Source: Lama glama (lineage: Eukaryota). From it: a stretch of 64,000 nt of DNA. Positions 17,301 through 27,529 of this stretch are shown here, one piece after another (within the stretch, counting starts at the first letter, position 1; each line of letters begins with the position of its first letter). Both the position numbers and the translations under genes were made by a program. The stretch covers positions 2,542,001 through 2,606,000 of the forward strand of contig CM052851.1 of NCBI GenBank assembly GCA_028534125.1. Reading direction: 5' to 3'. Below the pieces are notes generated by a model. It was not told the origin of the DNA. It did no database searches and saw nothing but the letters and a program-made list of their open reading frames with translations.

Positions 17301-20300
17301 ATGTGTTACTTCTTACCGAGGGCCTGGCACTGGACTTAGGCGGGGTGGGGCCAAGGTGATGGCCAGAGAGCCAGGCCAGGAAGCTGACACGTTGTTCTGG
17401 GGTGGCCCTCTTCCTTCCTGGAAGCGGTCTGATTTGGGGGCCCCTGCCTAATCCTTCCTTCTGCCTTTTTGTCTTTCAAACAGCCCCCAACTCAGAAGAT
17501 GCTCACTGATCCTTTGGGGTGAGTGAGTAGGGGATGGGTGAGCAGGTGGACAGATGCATCATGTAGCAGCCTAGTCCCCCTCCCGGCCACCTGCCACTTG
17601 CCACCTGCCTCACCCCAGCCCAGCTCCAACCCAGAATTCTACCCCCCCATCTCCCCCTCATTTGAAATGAAGTCCATTTGAAATCAAACCTCGTCAGCAG
17701 GAATGTGACCAGCTTGTGATCACTTCGCATGCTCCATGAAGGACCCGTGTAGGAACAGAGGGTCTAGGAGCTGACGGAAGGAAATCTTGGCCATCTTTGG
17801 GCATCTGGGCTCTGACACCTTCACACCTACTCTCTTTGTTGGGATGAAGTCAGTGCTTTCAGTGCCTCTGCTTCCCCTTCCAAAGTAGTAGGTGGCAGGT
17901 GGGGGCGTGTTGTCTGTGTGACAGGAAAGGAGACTTGTGCACGTGGGCGCAGAGCCAGCATCCAAAGCCTGCATGTAACTGGAGAACCACTGTGCACAGG
18001 TAGTGAGCTCCCTGTTGCTGGAAGTATTCAAGGAGAGCCTGCCTGCTAGTGGCAGGGAGACTTTAAATGGGTGAGGTGGGTGGGGTCAGGAATGGCCCAC
18101 CTCCCTTCCCACCGCCACCCCAGCAGGCTTTCCGTGGGGCAGCGCCTAGTCCAGGACTGGGCACACAGTAGGTCTGCATGTGAATCTAAGCTATCGTTCC
18201 TAATCTTGGTGAATTTTTTACTCAGATTCTTGGAAGTGCTGATTAGAAAAGCTGTCTGCTTATTAGAAGAATTGCAGGTGTCTGAAAGAGGAGTCCTTCA
18301 CCTAAGGGGTGTTTCCTGAGGTTCCTCAAATCCTATTATGTCCAAAGTCAGCTCCTTTGCCCCACCGCCCCTCACACAGCCTAGGAGGGAGACCGAGATC
18401 TTCTCCGTCCTGATCACTGCTTGTCCCCTGGGCCCTCACAGCCCGGGGCCACACGTGTGATGGGTCGTGGAACTGAGGGATGGGGTGGGCTGGAGAGCTG
18501 GGCTGCCCCTCTGCCCCAGGCTGGACAGCCTGTTTCCTGGTTACAGGGTCTGCCTCAGACAGGCTCCCTTCTCGGGGGGTGGGGATGGGCAGCCGGGGCA
18601 CCGTCGTTTCCAGACTCCGCTCCTGCTTGTGAGCAGATGCACTGAGAAACAGGCACTCTGTGTGCCAGTGACGGGGCGACAGGGCTGGGAGCTGGGGGCT
18701 GTCCTGCTGGGGCCACGTGTAAATGCTGTTTGGGCATCTCTGGTTCTGCTCCCAGCACCCGGGTGAGGGCTCCGTCTGGTGTCTCCCTCCTCCTGGAATC
18801 AGCAAAGATGAGGGATTTCCACAGTGGCGCCCAGTGAAGCTGCTTCTTCCCCACGCCTTCCACCCAAGGTCAAGGGCAGGGGAGCCCACCAGGGCAGCGC
18901 ACCTCTGGCCTTTGGCGAGGTTGCCGCCCATCAACCCCGGAGCACAGGCACTCTGCTCCTCTGCCAACAGAAAGGCGGCAGCGCTAAGGCGAAGATTGGC
19001 GCAGGGACTTGGCGCAGGCTGAGGCTTGAGCTTTGGGGCGGTGGCGATCGCAGGCAGATGGAGGGAGGGCTGAGCATCACAGCGCCCCCCAACCCCCAGA
19101 GGATTCCCCGGGCTGGGGAGGTCCCTTGGGTCACCGTCCCTGTGGCATCCTGCCCTTGATGCGGTGGGCAGTCAAGCCTGTGGCCAGCACACCTCGGACA
19201 AACTGGACACCCACGTTGAAGGCCCCTGGTGAGTGTACCCGGGGACACAGCTGCAGGCTCCTCAGGTGGGGACAGCTGTGTCCTGTTGGTGACACTTTCT
19301 GCATCCAAGGGAGAAGCTTCTGGAAGCAGTTCAGCTCCGCACCCCTGTCCAAGGATGTCCAGCTCTACCAGTGCCACCTCTGTCTCCCAGGGACGTGAGC
19401 TGTGCAGAGCATGGTCGTGGGGGTCTTTGATGATAGCAAACACCAGCAGACAGACACCTCCTGGGGCAGGTCTCAGAAGTGGCCGGGGCTCCGGCACGGC
19501 GGGCGAGCGTAGCCCAGGGCGGAGTCTGAATGCAGCTCCAAGCTGTGTGATGGGGCGCCTTTGGAGTTAAAGGAGGATGAGGCTTAAATGCTCAGCGGGT
19601 ACGGGGCACCCAGTCTTCATCCTCACTCTCCTGGAGAGGCCGTTCGGCAAGGCGTCCTGCCAACCCGGGCGTCCCGTGCTGTGATGGCTGCCCTTTTTGC
19701 TGACACAGAGCGTGTCGACCACATGGATTTCAACTTACAGACTCCCGTTGCTTTTCCCTGTCTCATCCCATCTTTCTTTCTCTCTCTCTCTCGCTCTCTT
19801 TTTTTCCCCCAAATTTCGGAAGCAGTTATCTTAGCAACCGAAAAAACACACACTTAATCACAGCCCTGCAGCAGATGCGGCGGGTGGCAGAACTCGCTCC
19901 CGAGAATGCTCTGTTTAGTTCTCGGGCAGCCCTGGCTCCTGGGGTAGAAATAACCCGTTCCACCTGCCGCAGGGCTCACCTGCGTAGCCGAACTTTCTCC
20001 CTGTCGCCTCTCTCGTGCCTCCCGGACTTCTGTAAGAAATATGCAGAGTGGCTCGGAAGTCATTCATTTTTATCAGCTGCCTGGAATTAGGGCGAGCCTC
20101 TGCTGGGCTGCCACTTAATTGCTTTATCTCTCTTTTGTTTGGGAAAAAAAAAGGTGGGGGGTGGAAATCCTGTGTTCTCCAGGGTAATTACCTCCGTGGG
20201 GGGGGGAGCCGGAGAATTAACGGGCACTTGTGTCTGTGATTCTTGCCAGCGGAAATCTGGGTCGTGTTCAGAAATTTCTGAATGCTGGCTGACGGCCGCC

Positions 20301-20439
20301 CAGTTATCGAGGTCCAGCGTGAAGCTTCTCTGGAACTGGGCTGTTTTATCTCCTCGACTGGCTCATCACATCTGCTCCCGGACCAGCGGCATTAAAGAAA
20401 ACTTGGCTTTTCTCTTTAAAAATTAAAACTAGAGAAGCA

Positions 20440-20894
20440 CAGGGTGTGCCACGTAGCCCCCTGGGGCGCGTTTGAGCAGAAGTGGCCGGAGCCCTGGTGT
20501 CCTTGGCTCAGCGGGGCTCGGGCTCACCGCGCCTCCCGCGTTTCCCGGCGATGCTCGCCGACCCTCCTCCCCGGCGCACTGAACACAAAAGCAGAGCAGC
20601 GCTGCTCACATGACGGGCGCGGGGAGCGGCGGCCGCGGGCTTTGAGAGCAGCCCCGTCTGTGCACAGTCGGTTCCCAGCTGACAGGCAGACTATGGGGTG
20701 GGCCCTGGCACCAGTGTGCCGGGTCTGGCCTGCCCAGCGATGCTCCGAGGCACGCAGCGCCCAGACGCCCGCCGCTGCTGCTGCTCCCCGGGTCCAAGCC
20801 ACTCCAGCGCCCAGGGGCTGGGCAGCGCCCCTCTCCTTCCTCCCATCTGAGAAGGTTATATAATGGGCGGACGGCTGCCAAAGTCAGAGGGAAA
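20440..20894 (+). promoter_or_regulatory. SHANK2: CpG-rich intragenic promoter / 5' UTR of the ProSAP1A isoform
   Basis: CpG-dense, repeat-free sequence directly upstream of an ATG-initiated first exon; TATATAA at 20857-20863; GC box GGGCGG at 20865-20870. Confidence 0.7.
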
Positions 20895-20931
20895 ATGAAG
20901 TCTTTGTTAAATGCCTTCACCAAGAAGGAAG
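20895..20931 (+). CDS. SHANK2: SHANK2 alternative first coding exon (ProSAP1A/Shank2A N-terminus MKSLLNAFTKKE + phase-1 G); 5' end of exon not determinable
   Basis: ATG at 20895 gives MKSLLNAFTKKE, matching the recalled N-terminus of human/rat Shank2. Donor G|GTAAGG at 20932. G joins TG at 25375 to give Val (…KKE-V-PFRE…). Confidence 0.95.
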
Positions 20932-23249
20932 GTAAGGAGAAGGCTTTTGGGCGCGTGGAGCTCGGGAAGCAGCAGTTTCTTGCTGATTCTCCAGGCGGGG
21001 GAGGGGCGGGGGGACTCCGGTTCTTCTTAAAACTGCTGGCTGTTCCTTCCCTTCGTGGAAGGGAATACCGCTCCTGGTGTCTGATAGGGCTTTGTTGTAG
21101 CTGGTCTGGAATTTTAGCCCACCTGAAGGTGCCTTTCCCACCCCTCCAAGTCCCCATCCCTTGCAGAATTGTGAGATGTGCACTGTGGTGACTTGCCGGA
21201 GGGCAGGTTGGGAACTAAGTCCTATGGAGAACAATGGAAGTTTGACTCCAGTCTGGCGGCTCCCTGGAGCTCCAGGGTGTTTGCTAAGGAGTCAGGAGGG
21301 TCAGGACCCTGCCGGCTGCCCTGGCCAGGTGGACACTTTCAGAACCACCACGTGGCTTTCCTTGGCCAGCCTCTGGGCTGCAGTTTCAGGGAGCGGTTGG
21401 GAAATGCAGCGTGGCAGACTTGGAAAGTGCACCCGCTTTTTGTCATTCCCTTGTGTGATTTTCATTGTGGAGAAGGAACGTAGAAATCAATGCATGTAAG
21501 ACAGCTAAGAAAACATCCCACCCACCTGGAGTTTGCAGATTGCCTGAGAGAAGGAGACGGTTGGGTGGAATATTAATCATTTGCAGACTGGAAGAGTTAT
21601 TTCTAATTCTTTTCACACACACACAAAAAATCCCAACATTTTCCACGGATGGTTCCGGTTAGTTTGCCAGAGAGCTCTTGTTTTGTGAAATCAGAAGGTT
21701 TATGAAGACGCTCCTTTAGAGAAATTGGGAAGGTACTTCCCGGCCCAAGCCATGAAACAAACATGGAAGAAATTTCTGATTAAATTGCACAGGAAGCTAA
21801 TTTCATGTGAGTCTTGGTAATTAAGCGAGATCATTTTCATTGGAATGTTCACCCTAATGTCACCTATGTGATTCCTCTTGAGTAACTGGCTGCATCCTCA
21901 GGGCAGAATGCATTTGAAAAAGTCCCAGCTCTTTTATTTCTTCATCTTGCGTAAGTTCCTCTAGGTCTCAGAACGACCTCTTAAGCCTGGGTCTCAGGAA
22001 TTTATATAAAGCAGCCTTTGTCTGTGCTCGCGTCCTTATAGTATTAACCCACATTCACCTCCTGGGACTTCGCTGTTGGGAATCCGTGCACAGCACGGAT
22101 GTGTTAGTCGGGAGTATGGTGTCCTGTTCATTCAGCGCCAGCTCTGTTCGTCTGCAGACTTCTCTTCCTTTGCGAGCCTGTCTCAGCCACTGGCAGGACT
22201 CCCCCCACCCCACATTCCATCACTTTCTATCGGAGGGGTCAGTACCTTACCCAGTCACACTGGGCAGAAATACAGGATGGACTGTGTGCTCAGGGAAGCT
22301 GGGAGGCTCTGCATGAGCTCACACCGTGGAGCGCGGGCGTTTACGTGTCTCAGAGCGTCCCCGTCGAGCTAGGGTGTCCCCCTCCCCACGGTGAGCATGC
22401 ACCCTGGCCTCTCCTCGGGTCGGGGGTGGTGAGGGTGCCCCAGGAAGCTAAGGGGATCCCCTCCGAGCGTCTGCTCGAGGTGCTGGCTTCCTCCCCGGGC
22501 TGTGGGCCTGCAGCGGACAGTCTCCGTGAGTGGAAGGGAAGGAGCATCGCTCTCGGAGACCCGGAACCACTGTCCTCTGCGAGGTCTCCCAATCCACACT
22601 CTTCTGTCAGGCAGGGATCAGGGCAGCCCAAGGCCCCAGCCGCCACTGTGAACCTCGGTGATGAGCCCTCAGTGATCCCGGAAGTCTTTTGGCCTCTGAT
22701 GCCGACAGAGGGAGACACTGACGTGGTTCTCCCTGGTGACCGGCAAACACAAACCTGGGGCTTTTCCCCAAAAGGAGATTTTTCTGATAGGTGGGGTAAG
22801 ACCTAGGGTGATTCCCCAGGGACCGAGCCCTGGCGAAGGCAGCCTCTTGGGCCCCGGAGATGGAGGTCCGCCGAGCACGCCCCTCCCGTTCCCTGTTTTC
22901 CTCCTGGCGAGGCTGGCATGGAAGAGTCCTCGGCTCTGAGGAATTCGGAGTGGGTGCAGGTCCCAGCTGAGGGCCCCGGCTGTGGAATACTGCATCTCGC
23001 TCCCATGGGAAGGCTTCAGAGGAAGCAGACTGGCAGGAGAACGCTGTGGGAAAGAGCGTGACCTCCCGATGGGTCGCTTCCAGATTCTCAGCACTGTACG
23101 AGCCAGGGCGTGAATTACGAGTGCGCCTCCCCAGGAAGCCTCGTGCCATTTCTGAGCGGCTTCTGCGGATTGGCTGTGTCTCTGCCTGCCCAGGATTGCC
23201 CTGCATCCTGGGGGGCAGCAAAGGGTGCACTGGGTCACAGCTGTCTCGG

Positions 23250-25374: not shown

Positions 25375-25690
25375 TGCCCTTCCGAGAGGCCCCGGCGTAC
25401 TCCAACCGTAGGCGGCGGCCCCCCAGCACGCTGGCCGCCCCCCGGGTCCTGCTGCGCTCCAACAGTGACAACAACCTCACCGCCAGCGCACCCGACTGGG
25501 CCGCCTGCTCCGCCGCCGCCCACCGCAGCCTCTCGCCCCAGCTGCTGCAGCAGGTGCCCGGCAGACCCGACGGGGCCCTGAAGACCATCGCGAGCTACAC
25601 CCCCGGGCCCCGCAGCCGCTCCCCGTCACTCAACAGGCTGGGCGGCGCCAGTGAGGATGGCAAGAGGCCCCAGCAGCCCTGGCATGTCGG
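25375..25690 (+). CDS. SHANK2: SHANK2 internal exon, 316 nt (VPFREAPAYSNRRRRPP…GKRPQQPWHVG), linker before SH3
   Basis: Pyrimidine tract + CCCCAG acceptor (AG 25373-25374); donor GG|GTAAGG at 25691; translation matches recalled SHANK2; phase 1 in, phase 2 out. Confidence 0.97.
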
Positions 25691-27529
25691 GTAAGGAGCG
25701 GCCGGCGGGCGGGCTCCTGTGGGGACCACGGAGAGGAAGACCTCGGGACACCAGGGACCCTGGTTTCTGGGACTTGGCACGTGACCAGAGCTTGAGCAGG
25801 ACACCTGTTTTATTCCAATCAGGACGTTGAGAACACTTGCAAACCAGAGTCCTGCCCACTGCCCCGCCTCGCCTCAGACAGCCTCCTGGAGCAGTGGGCA
25901 CGCAGCCGCTGCTCAGGGCAGGTGTGGGGGGCCCAGCTGGGCTCCTGGGGTGGCCTGGGGCGGCCGCTGGTGTTTGGGGCCCGCTTCCTTTCCTTGTGCA
26001 CTGGCTTCTGGGTCTTAAAAGCAAAGTGTGGATAGGGAACTCAGGGCACCAGCTTGTCCTGGGGGGGAGAGTTCCTCCAGAGCCGCGTCATGCGAATGCG
26101 CCTTAGCCAAGGTGATGGTCACGTGCACAGCTGAGTCTCCGAGGGGCCGCGTGTGGGCACTGGAACCCGACAGATGCCCCCAGCCATGGCAACAGCCCTG
26201 GCTGGTCCCACTGTGTCCACACACGAGGCAGGTGCAGGGAGGGCATCTCGGCAAACTCCGAAGCAGCCCAGGGGGTGGGAACCCCATTCTTGTCCCTTTT
26301 GGAGACAGGGCAGACTGAGTGTGGACCCCTCGGGCGTCTGACTCAGGCTCTGGGCCCTCCCCACACCCCCCGTCTCCCACCAGAGATGGGAGCTGTACCC
26401 GCAGCTCCCAGACAGGCTCTCCCACTTCTCCTGTGGCTTTCAGGGTTTTTCAGGCCAGGATGAGACTTCCTGGGGAGGGGTGGGGTTGGGATCGTTGCCT
26501 GGGCCTCGGGGGGCCGGGTTCAGGGCTGATTGGAGCAGACAACGCAGCAACCGTCTCTGTCACCGCTGGTCCCCCCTCTGCGATCTCACATGCGCCCAGG
26601 AGCTGCTCCGTTCCCCAGTGTCTCTGGGAGGCTGGCCCTGCGTGCTCCCATCTCACAGTTGAGAAGACTGAGGCCTGTGGTGTGGCTGGGGCCGGACCCT
26701 GGTCCCTGCGTCTGCGACATGGTGGTCATGGGGCTTGTGCTTCTCGAACTCTGTCCTCACCCGCGGTGGCCCAGAGTGAGCCAGCACTCCTGTGAGTCCC
26801 GGCTGGCACGGTGTATGGGGTGACGGCACTCTGCAGGGGACCTGGTTCCCTGTCCCCCCTTGCTTTGTTCCCTTGGGCTCGCTGTGCCAGCCTGCGGTGA
26901 GTGTGGCTGGCCGGGGTCGTTCCTGACGCCCTGCCCCCAGCTCAGAGAGGGGAGGGTGGGGCGGGGGCTCAGGCTGGGGCAAGGGGTCAGTGCTTCACGT
27001 GGCCCTGGAAGAGGGCCACGTGTGCGCCTGTGAGCAGCAGGCCAGGTGTCCGGGCTGCAGCCTTGAGGTCGTGGGGAGAGTGTGCCGTGGGAACCCCAGT
27101 CCCTGGCCGCGGCCGGGCCCCCTCGCTGCCCTGCCGCCCCAGGCCCGCGTCCGTGCTTGAGCCCGCCGAGGCTGCCCCTCCGCCCCAGCAGCTCGTTCTC
27201 AGACCACGAGAACCCGTGCTTGTCTCTGGTCTAGATTCTCGCTCGGAGTCGCCCCAAGGGAGAAGCCCCAGGTGCCAGCGAGCAGCTTAAAGCTAAATTA
27301 AAGGGTCCCCTGAGGCCTCAAGTTCCACTTCACACCGTTAGCTAGAATTAGGGCTGTACGTTTAAACAGAGTGTGTCCCCTCCCTCGGGTGTGGAATCTA
27401 GTAAGATACCCAAGGCAGGGTGGCCGGGGACTTGCAAAAGCTGCAGACAAACCATTGCTGGTGAAGAGACAGAGCACCTGGCACACTGCGGGGACCGCCG
27501 TGTCTGACTGTCCCTGTTGTCCCGCGCCG

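What the first reader, a model, noticed from the sequence alone, without database searches (positions are those of the whole stretch)
20693..20898. Stop/start uORF relay leading into the ProSAP1A start codon
Seen: ATG 20693 (A at -3, G at +4) opens a 56-aa uORF (MGWALAP…SEKVI) ending TAA at 20861-20863. The last A of that stop begins a second strong-context ATG (TAATG, 20863; A at -3, G at +4). This 11-aa uORF (MGGRLPKSEGK) ends TGA at 20896-20898, overlapping the SHANK2 ATG (ATGA). Further ATGs at 20610 and 20740 open short uORFs. Known: TAATG and ATGA overlaps are the geometry of termination-reinitiation, overlapping uORFs repress main-ORF translation, and the Shank1 5' UTR is uORF-regulated. 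Inference: if transcription starts upstream of 20863, this is a translational gate on a dosage-sensitive synaptic scaffold.
Basis: partly seen in the sequence, partly recalled or inferred. Interest (0 to 1): 0.7.

Follow-up and report, generated by a model that had tools for sequence, protein, structure and literature searches.

The report
Old uORF brake before SHANK2A start
The short reading frames in front of the SHANK2A start codon are real and the longest one is shared with chimpanzee; together they likely act as a brake on how much of this synaptic scaffold protein is made, much as shown for Shank1, rather than as the ribosome relay first proposed.

Summary
All coordinates are right. ATG 20895 is the SHANK2A/ProSAP1A start. 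The two-step chain alone is weak evidence: P=0.03-0.10 in shuffles, though 0 of 58 control leaders have it. The new result is conservation. The 56-aa uORF has a chimpanzee counterpart with the same ATG, context, frame and stop position, annotated on a SHANK2 transcript reaching about 260 nt upstream. In an unnamed counterpart the ATG is kept but the TAATG stop is gone. A mouse transcript of SHANK2A size has a ~391-nt leader. So the uATGs probably lie in mRNA, but the exact relay is not universal, and no TURBS motif is present. Most likely this is a leaky-scanning brake of the Shank1 kind. Still open: the TSS (TAATG is also the tail of a TATATAA box), conservation of ATG 20863, and translation; the mouse Ribo-seq tables I could read call no uORF on that transcript. 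No earlier scan note on SHANK2 was found.

The parts
20450..20850 (.). CpG-island-like stretch: intragenic SHANK2A promoter and probable 5' leader
   Evidence: GC about 0.7, CpG o/e 0.7-0.94 in 200-nt windows starting at 20450-20600; the Shank2a promoter is placed in intron 10 by PMC6060255
20610..20645 (+). uORF b, 11 aa, weak context; its ATG appears kept in P0123 (starts MTGAG)
20693..20863 (+). uORF1, 56 aa, strong context; counterparts in chimpanzee (P0121, 69% identity, same stop position) and in an unnamed source (P0123, 64%, stop lost)
20740..20850 (+). uORF c, 36 aa, weak context, nested in uORF1, same frame as uORF2
20826..20854 (+). pyrimidine tract followed by GAG/AAG; possible weak splice acceptor (untested)
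20857..20863 (+). TATATAA: TATA-like element whose last three letters are the uORF1 stop; Inr-like BBCABW with its A 29 nt downstream (20886)
20863..20898 (+). uORF2, 11 aa, strong context, out of frame; its TGA overlaps the main ATG
20895..20931 (+). coding part of SHANK2A exon 1b (12 codons + 1 nt), GT donor at 20932
   Evidence: 18 of 120 listed homologues begin with this peptide and none is extended
25375..25691 (+). next SHANK2 exon (shared with SHANK2E), AG acceptor at 25373-74; 3' end approximate

Best explanation
This is the first exon of the SHANK2A (ProSAP1A) isoform, with five upstream ATGs in a GC-rich stretch that is likely a 260-390-nt 5' leader, where they would act as a leaky-scanning brake on SHANK2A translation. 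Shown: the ORF geometry, the identity of the main start, and counterparts of uORF1 in two other sources. Inferred mechanism: most scanning ribosomes start at strong ATG 20693. Because its stop overlaps ATG 20863, they cannot use that ATG, and a minority would reinitiate 31 nt further on at the main ATG. Ribosomes that leak past 20693 are caught by strong ATG 20863 and terminate on the main ATG without making SHANK2A. The overlaps work as bypass and exclusion, as in Shank1, not as a hand-over from stop to start. Under assumed scanning parameters both ATGs are net repressors, 20863 the stronger. A later TSS would drop uORF1 or both and so release the brake.
For: Geometry. Main start and splice. 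P0121, named 'SHANK2 isoform 7, partial [Pan troglodytes]', aligns over all 56 residues (E 2.9e-10). It has Asn-Met-Gly at the start, hence A at -3 and G at +4, ends at the same KVI, and begins near window 20635, so an annotated transcript spans both uATG positions. Keeping ATG, context, open frame and stop at that divergence happens in 11-17% of substitution-only simulations. P0123 keeps the Met of uORF1 and of uORF b. Mouse ENSMUST00000105900.9 has its 1472-aa ORF starting at nt 392 (PMC13396407 supplement row). Five uATGs and three overlaps are rare among controls: 1 of 26 CpG-like control leaders has 5 or more uATGs and 0 of 26 has 2 or more overlaps. Shank1 precedent. Toy model: long-leader output about 6% of a uATG-free leader; removing 20863 raises it about 2.7-fold and removing 20693 about 2-fold (assumed parameters).
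Against: No TSS or ribosome data for this species; laid RNA runs were uninformative. In the readable mouse hippocampal RibORF tables, ENSMUST00000105900 appears once, as the canonical ORF only. The five Shank2 uORF rows are CTG starts on the Shank2B-sized transcript; the uORF and extension tables are cut, the overlapping-uORF table probably is too, and three tables were unreadable. SHANK2 is absent from 6 supplementary files of PMC10032668. The mouse 43-aa ATG uORF (PMC11088998) has no isoform given and fits 41- and 44-aa uORFs of the SHANK2B leader as well. A peptide search finds only counterparts with an intact frame, so the two hits are a biased sample. 69% peptide identity is what unconstrained DNA gives at 0.16-0.2 substitutions per site. 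Conservation of ATG 20863 is untested. TATATAA plus an Inr-like motif could start transcripts at about 20886, downstream of every uATG. That the mouse transcript is Shank2A is inferred from size; whether its leader is one colinear exon is not shown.
Confidence: 0.55

Rival explanations
1. Promoter reading: TAATG is the tail of a TATA box and the main TSS lies at about 20886 or close upstream, so most SHANK2A mRNAs carry no uATG or only ATG 20863; long leaders are minor species.
For: TATATAA at 20857, one of 6 TATAWAW on the + strand and 13th of 126,880 sites by a recalled TATA matrix; Inr-like A at +29. Upstream ATG density (10-14 per kb) equals the window background (10 per kb), with no depletion. 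A human SHANK2A probe at nt 36-111 of ENST00000656230.1 (PMC11449796) leaves room for a short annotated leader.
Against: It does not match TATAWAWR; an Inr match in that range arises by chance about 9% of the time. The CpG island lies upstream. The chimpanzee transcript model reaches about 20635 and the mouse leader is about 391 nt. With a TSS at 20886 only about 11 nt of the 76-nt isoform-specific probe would lie in exon 1b (inference).
Confidence: 0.18
2. Tolerated coincidence: the leader is transcribed, but the overlaps and most uATGs are by-products of a conserved GC-rich promoter/UTR and have little effect on protein output.
For: Two-step chain P about 0.10 in trinucleotide shuffles. ATGA is forced by Met-Lys. 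The frames differ in P0123. Neutral retention probability is not small and the search is biased. uORF translation is not generally anti-correlated with main-ORF translation in human brain (bioRxiv 10.1101/2021.10.22.465170, passage).
Against: Two strong-context uATGs in a scanned leader should cut output (toy model). Control CpG-like leaders average 0.9 uATG (24 in 26). Both SHANK2 internal leaders show excess overlaps.
Confidence: 0.2
3. One reading: ribosomes terminate at TAA, restart at the overlapping ATG 20863, terminate at TGA and restart at the overlapping SHANK2A ATG (coupled termination-reinitiation).
For: Both junctions have the UAAUG/AUGA geometry of viral coupling. 0 of 58 control leaders have such a chain into the main ATG. 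The SHANK2B leader has a longer chain.
Against: No TGGGA in 20400-20900 (motif recalled). Fold z = -0.41. The review says viral coupling needs an upstream RNA element and that overlapping uORF and main ORF are mutually exclusive. Shank1 uses bypass. The TAA is lost in P0123.
Confidence: 0.07

Closest known systems
Human Shank1 5' UTR: uORF0 (ACG) / uORF3 (PMC3922875, passages seen)
   Same: GC-rich leader of about 400 nt (inferred here); an upstream uORF whose stop overlaps the AUG of a second uORF (UGAUG there, UAAUG here); the second uORF overlaps the main start.
   Different: The first uORF starts at ACG in Shank1 and is required for main-ORF translation; here it starts at a strong ATG and the toy model makes it net repressive. 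Shank1 uORF3 ends downstream of AUG+1 and switches isoforms; here uORF2 ends on the main ATG itself. Shank1 was tested in reporters; this leader was not.
ATF4/GCN4-type delayed reinitiation (PMC10275272, passages; ATF4 details recalled)
   Same: An upstream uORF followed by an inhibitory uORF overlapping the main ORF.
   Different: ATF4 has a very short first uORF and a long spacer before the inhibitory uORF, which makes it sensitive to ternary complex. Here uORF1 has 56 codons and no spacer, so the bypass would be constitutive.
Calicivirus / influenza B TURBS termination-reinitiation (PMC10275272)
   Same: UAAUG and AUGA stop/start overlaps.
   Different: No TURBS motif 1 and no unusual fold; short uORFs rather than a long ORF; a cap-scanned leader.
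DLGAP1 uORF switched by alternative TSS (bioRxiv 10.1101/2021.10.22.465170, passage)
   Same: Postsynaptic scaffold gene in which TSS choice could include or exclude a repressive uORF.
   Different: TSS switching is shown there and only hypothesised here.

Membership tests
TURBS-type termination-reinitiation | stop and restart codons within about 20 nt, often overlapping | tested here: met
TURBS-type termination-reinitiation | motif complementary to 18S rRNA upstream of the overlap (UGGGA core, recalled) | tested here: not met
   0 TGGGA in 20400-20900
TURBS-type termination-reinitiation | structured element presenting the motif | tested here: inconclusive
   20503-20866 folds no better than shuffles, z -0.41
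TURBS-type termination-reinitiation | downstream ORF depends on termination at the overlap | not testable with these tools
   needs reporters
Shank1-type bypass leader | first uORF stop overlaps the start of a second, inhibitory uORF | tested here: met
Shank1-type bypass leader | second uORF out of frame and overlapping the main start | tested here: met
   (4-nt overlap only)
Shank1-type bypass leader | uORFs lie inside the mRNA (long GC-rich leader) | tested here: inconclusive
   supported by annotations in chimpanzee and mouse; reads uninformative
Shank1-type bypass leader | first uORF raises main-ORF translation | not testable with these tools
   toy model predicts the opposite; needs reporters
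Conserved-peptide uORF | peptide conserved beyond what DNA identity explains | tested here: inconclusive
   69% and 64% identity match unconstrained DNA at 0.16-0.2 substitutions per site; no DNA of the counterparts for dN/dS; C-terminus differs in P0123
TATA/Inr core promoter | TATAWAWR about 30 nt before an initiator | tested here: inconclusive
   TATAWAW met, eighth base not a purine, Inr-like A at +29 with about 9% chance
TATA/Inr core promoter | sharp TSS at the initiator | not testable with these tools
   needs CAGE; annotated long leaders argue against exclusive use

The most novel reading that the evidence does not exclude
Stop-over-start shielding is a shared design of SHANK leaders: Shank1 (published), SHANK2A (3 of 5 uORF stops overlap an ATG) and SHANK2B (a four-uORF chain). 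In SHANK2A one element, TATATAATG, serves at once as TATA box, uORF1 stop and uORF2 start, so that TSS choice switches this dosage-sensitive autism gene between a braked and an unbraked mRNA.
Probability: 0.15. Interest if true: 0.75.

Novelty: new member of a known kind. Interest (0 to 1): 0.47.

Why it matters
SHANK2 is dosage-sensitive in neurons (PMC6060255 passage), and SHANK2A is a main brain isoform (PMC3276563; PMC11449796 finds SHANK2B more abundant). A uORF brake on SHANK2A would give a class of non-coding variants to interpret and a target for uORF-blocking approaches in haploinsufficiency. I found no paper describing it. SHANK2 + uORF gave 1 review listing, not read. SHANK2 + ribosome profiling + upstream open reading + brain gave 0. 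Shank2 + upstream AUG gave 0. Shank2 + TATA box gave 6 unrelated listings. Subscription papers are mostly not searched. The kind of control is well known, so the surprise is moderate.

Tried and rejected
RNA evidence for the TSS: 24 runs were listed and 4 were laid on 20000-20866. One contig covered 20000-20081 and nothing else did; this is no test, and the TSS stays open. Orthologous DNA from metagenomes: 21 of 21 matches to an 18-nt pattern were chance, matching at most 26 nt. N-terminal extension: the main frame is open from 20646 to the main ATG, but no relatives were found and 0 of 18 SHANK2A-type proteins are extended; rejected. Word-indexed search for uORF1 found nothing, whereas the full HMMER search did. 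Its third hit, P0122, is a repeat protein matching 20 residues and was dropped as chance. ESM Atlas gave no usable hit. The sigma-70 scan is irrelevant to a mammal. Supplements that might settle primers, leader length or human brain uORFs could not be seen: PMC11449796, PMC3276563 and PMC8639352; the published Duffy et al. 2022 is not held; PMC10591829 files hold no Shank2 but total only 18,534 characters. My early TATA-only reading (45-55%) was lowered. The toy model crashed on its third scenario, the 9-nt leader, which has no uATG anyway. Control leaders: 32 of 90 loci were dropped (short, no in-frame ATG, too little upstream DNA, N, duplicates); starts were assigned crudely as the first in-frame ATG, and some are probably intronic.

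Full report
Observation. Every coordinate in the finding is correct. ATG 20693 opens 56 codons to TAA 20861-63, ATG 20863 opens 11 codons to TGA 20896-98, and ATG 20895 follows. Both uATGs have A at -3 and G at +4. A fifth ATG at 20551 opens 20 codons whose TGA overlaps ATG 20610, so 3 of 5 uORF stops in the 392 nt upstream overlap an ATG.

Gene context. ATG 20895, a GT donor at 20932 and an AG acceptor at 25373-74 give the SHANK2A N-terminus joined to the next exon. Of 453 homologues of that exon, 120 were listed; 18 begin with the same 12-residue peptide (Thr or Ser at one position) and none is extended. The best hit is a camel protein at 95%. Passages of PMC3276563 and PMC6060255 place a separate SHANK2A promoter and start exon in intron 10. 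A CpG-island-like stretch covers about 20450-20850.

Chance. Overlaps are common in raw DNA: 57 of 637 and 114 of 725 ATG-ORFs on the two strands. The TGA in ATGA follows from Met-Lys. A two-step chain into the main ATG arose in 2.5% of 10,000 dinucleotide shuffles, and any two-step chain in 9.7% of 5,000 trinucleotide shuffles; three overlaps arose in 0.2-1.9%. Among 58 usable of 90 control loci from this genome (Forkhead, HLH and BTB_2 genes, crude starts), 12 of 126 uORF stops overlapped an ATG and none had a two-step chain into the main ATG. Of the 26 CpG-like controls, none had two overlaps and one had five uATGs. The leader is thus somewhat unusual, but the pattern was picked after the fact and alone proves little.

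Is it in the mRNA? No direct evidence was obtained; the laid runs were uninformative. For a short leader: TAATG is the tail of TATATAA at 20857, with an Inr-like motif 29 nt on (about 9% by chance), and ATG density upstream equals background. For a long leader: a mouse transcript with a 1472-aa ORF, the size of SHANK2A, starts its ORF at nt 392 (supplement row of PMC13396407), and a chimpanzee SHANK2 transcript model reaches about window 20635. A human isoform-specific probe at nt 36-111 (PMC11449796 passage) fits poorly with a 9-nt leader (inference). I judge a long leader more likely, with mixed starts possible.

Conservation. A full HMMER search with uORF1 gave 3 hits among 1.84 billion proteins; one is a repeat protein and was dropped. 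P0121 is named 'SHANK2 isoform 7, partial [Pan troglodytes]'. It aligns over all 56 residues at 69%, has Asn-Met-Gly at the start (A at -3, G at +4) and ends at the same KVI. That such models are projected from human annotation is recalled; the annotation shows a transcript model, not translation. P0123, from an unnamed Logan contig, begins with the counterpart of uORF b and contains the uORF1 Met. It has no stop after KAI and runs 11 residues further to a point matching the main start; there the TAATG stop is gone and one uORF probably ends on the ATGA (inference from protein only). Substitution-only simulation shows that 69% peptide identity needs no coding constraint. It also shows that keeping ATG, context, open frame and stop has probability 0.11-0.17. 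This is modest support, weakened because a peptide search finds only intact frames. ATG 20863 could not be tested. A metagenome scan gave 21 chance matches of 21.

Translation data. A mouse neuron ORF-RATER table lists one Shank2 ATG uORF of 43 aa, rating 0.72, without isoform (PMC11088998 supplement row; methods passages). In mouse hippocampal RibORF tables the SHANK2A-sized transcript appears only as canonical ORF, and all five Shank2 uORF rows are CTG starts on the transcript with its ATG at 531. Those tables are partly cut and three were unreadable. I located the SHANK2B leader in this genome. It holds 41- and 44-aa ATG uORFs and a 160-codon frame matching the mouse calls, so the published Shank2 uORFs may all belong to SHANK2B. 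It also has its own stop/start chain. SHANK2 was absent from the supplements of PMC10032668 and from the main text of the human brain preprint. Passages of PMC12953806 and PMC11328446 gave no TSS position.

Mechanism. Viral coupling needs a TURBS element, and a short overlapping uORF excludes the main ORF (PMC10275272 passages). No TGGGA and no unusual fold were found. In Shank1 the same geometry works by bypassing the overlapped AUG and reinitiating downstream (PMC3922875, 12 of 15 passages). Applied here: ribosomes on uORF1 skip ATG 20863 and have 31 nt to reinitiate, while ribosomes on uORF2 are lost. A toy model with assumed parameter ranges gives about 6% output for a long leader and 25% for a 74-nt leader, with both ATGs repressive. 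It illustrates direction only.

Verdict. The feature is real and partly conserved. It is most likely a uORF brake of a known kind, not described for SHANK2A in the searches made (listings only unless cited above). Brake 0.55, coincidence 0.20, promoter-only 0.18, relay 0.07. Earlier scan notes hold nothing on SHANK2; note e1-8579916 on SETD5, an ATGA-overlap uORF reported as not shared with humans, was a caution and was not checked. Interest 0.47.

Noticed in passing
L026:9031-9569 (G000:C36, SHANK2B/ProSAP1 leader; main ATG L026:9567): Chain of ATG uORFs: -536 (44 aa) ends TGATG on -402 (41 aa), whose TGA directly precedes ATG -276 (33 aa), which ends ATGA on -178 (55 aa, stop at -13). 2 of 4 stops overlap and 3 of 4 overlap or abut (trinucleotide-shuffle P 0.047 and 0.004).
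   Followed up: partly
L026, -493 to -11 relative to the SHANK2B ATG: A 160-codon out-of-frame ORF spans the SHANK2B leader. Mouse Ribo-seq calls a CTG uORF at nt 44-509 (155 codons) before the ATG at 531 in the same relative frame.
   Followed up: partly
window 20551-20645: Third stop/start overlap (ATGA at 20610-13) upstream of the reported chain.
   Followed up: yes
window 20826-20854: Pyrimidine tract then GAG/AAG: a possible acceptor that would make exon 1b an internal exon of 77-80 nt (frameshifting in SHANK2E) containing only ATG 20863.
   Followed up: no
window 20646-20894: The main reading frame is open for 83 codons upstream of the start; no sign that an extension is used.
   Followed up: yes
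P0121: A public chimpanzee 'SHANK2 isoform 7, partial' protein is the uORF1 frame, not SHANK2 coding sequence; a second accession (PNJ38955.1, species not shown) holds the identical 73 residues.
   Followed up: partly
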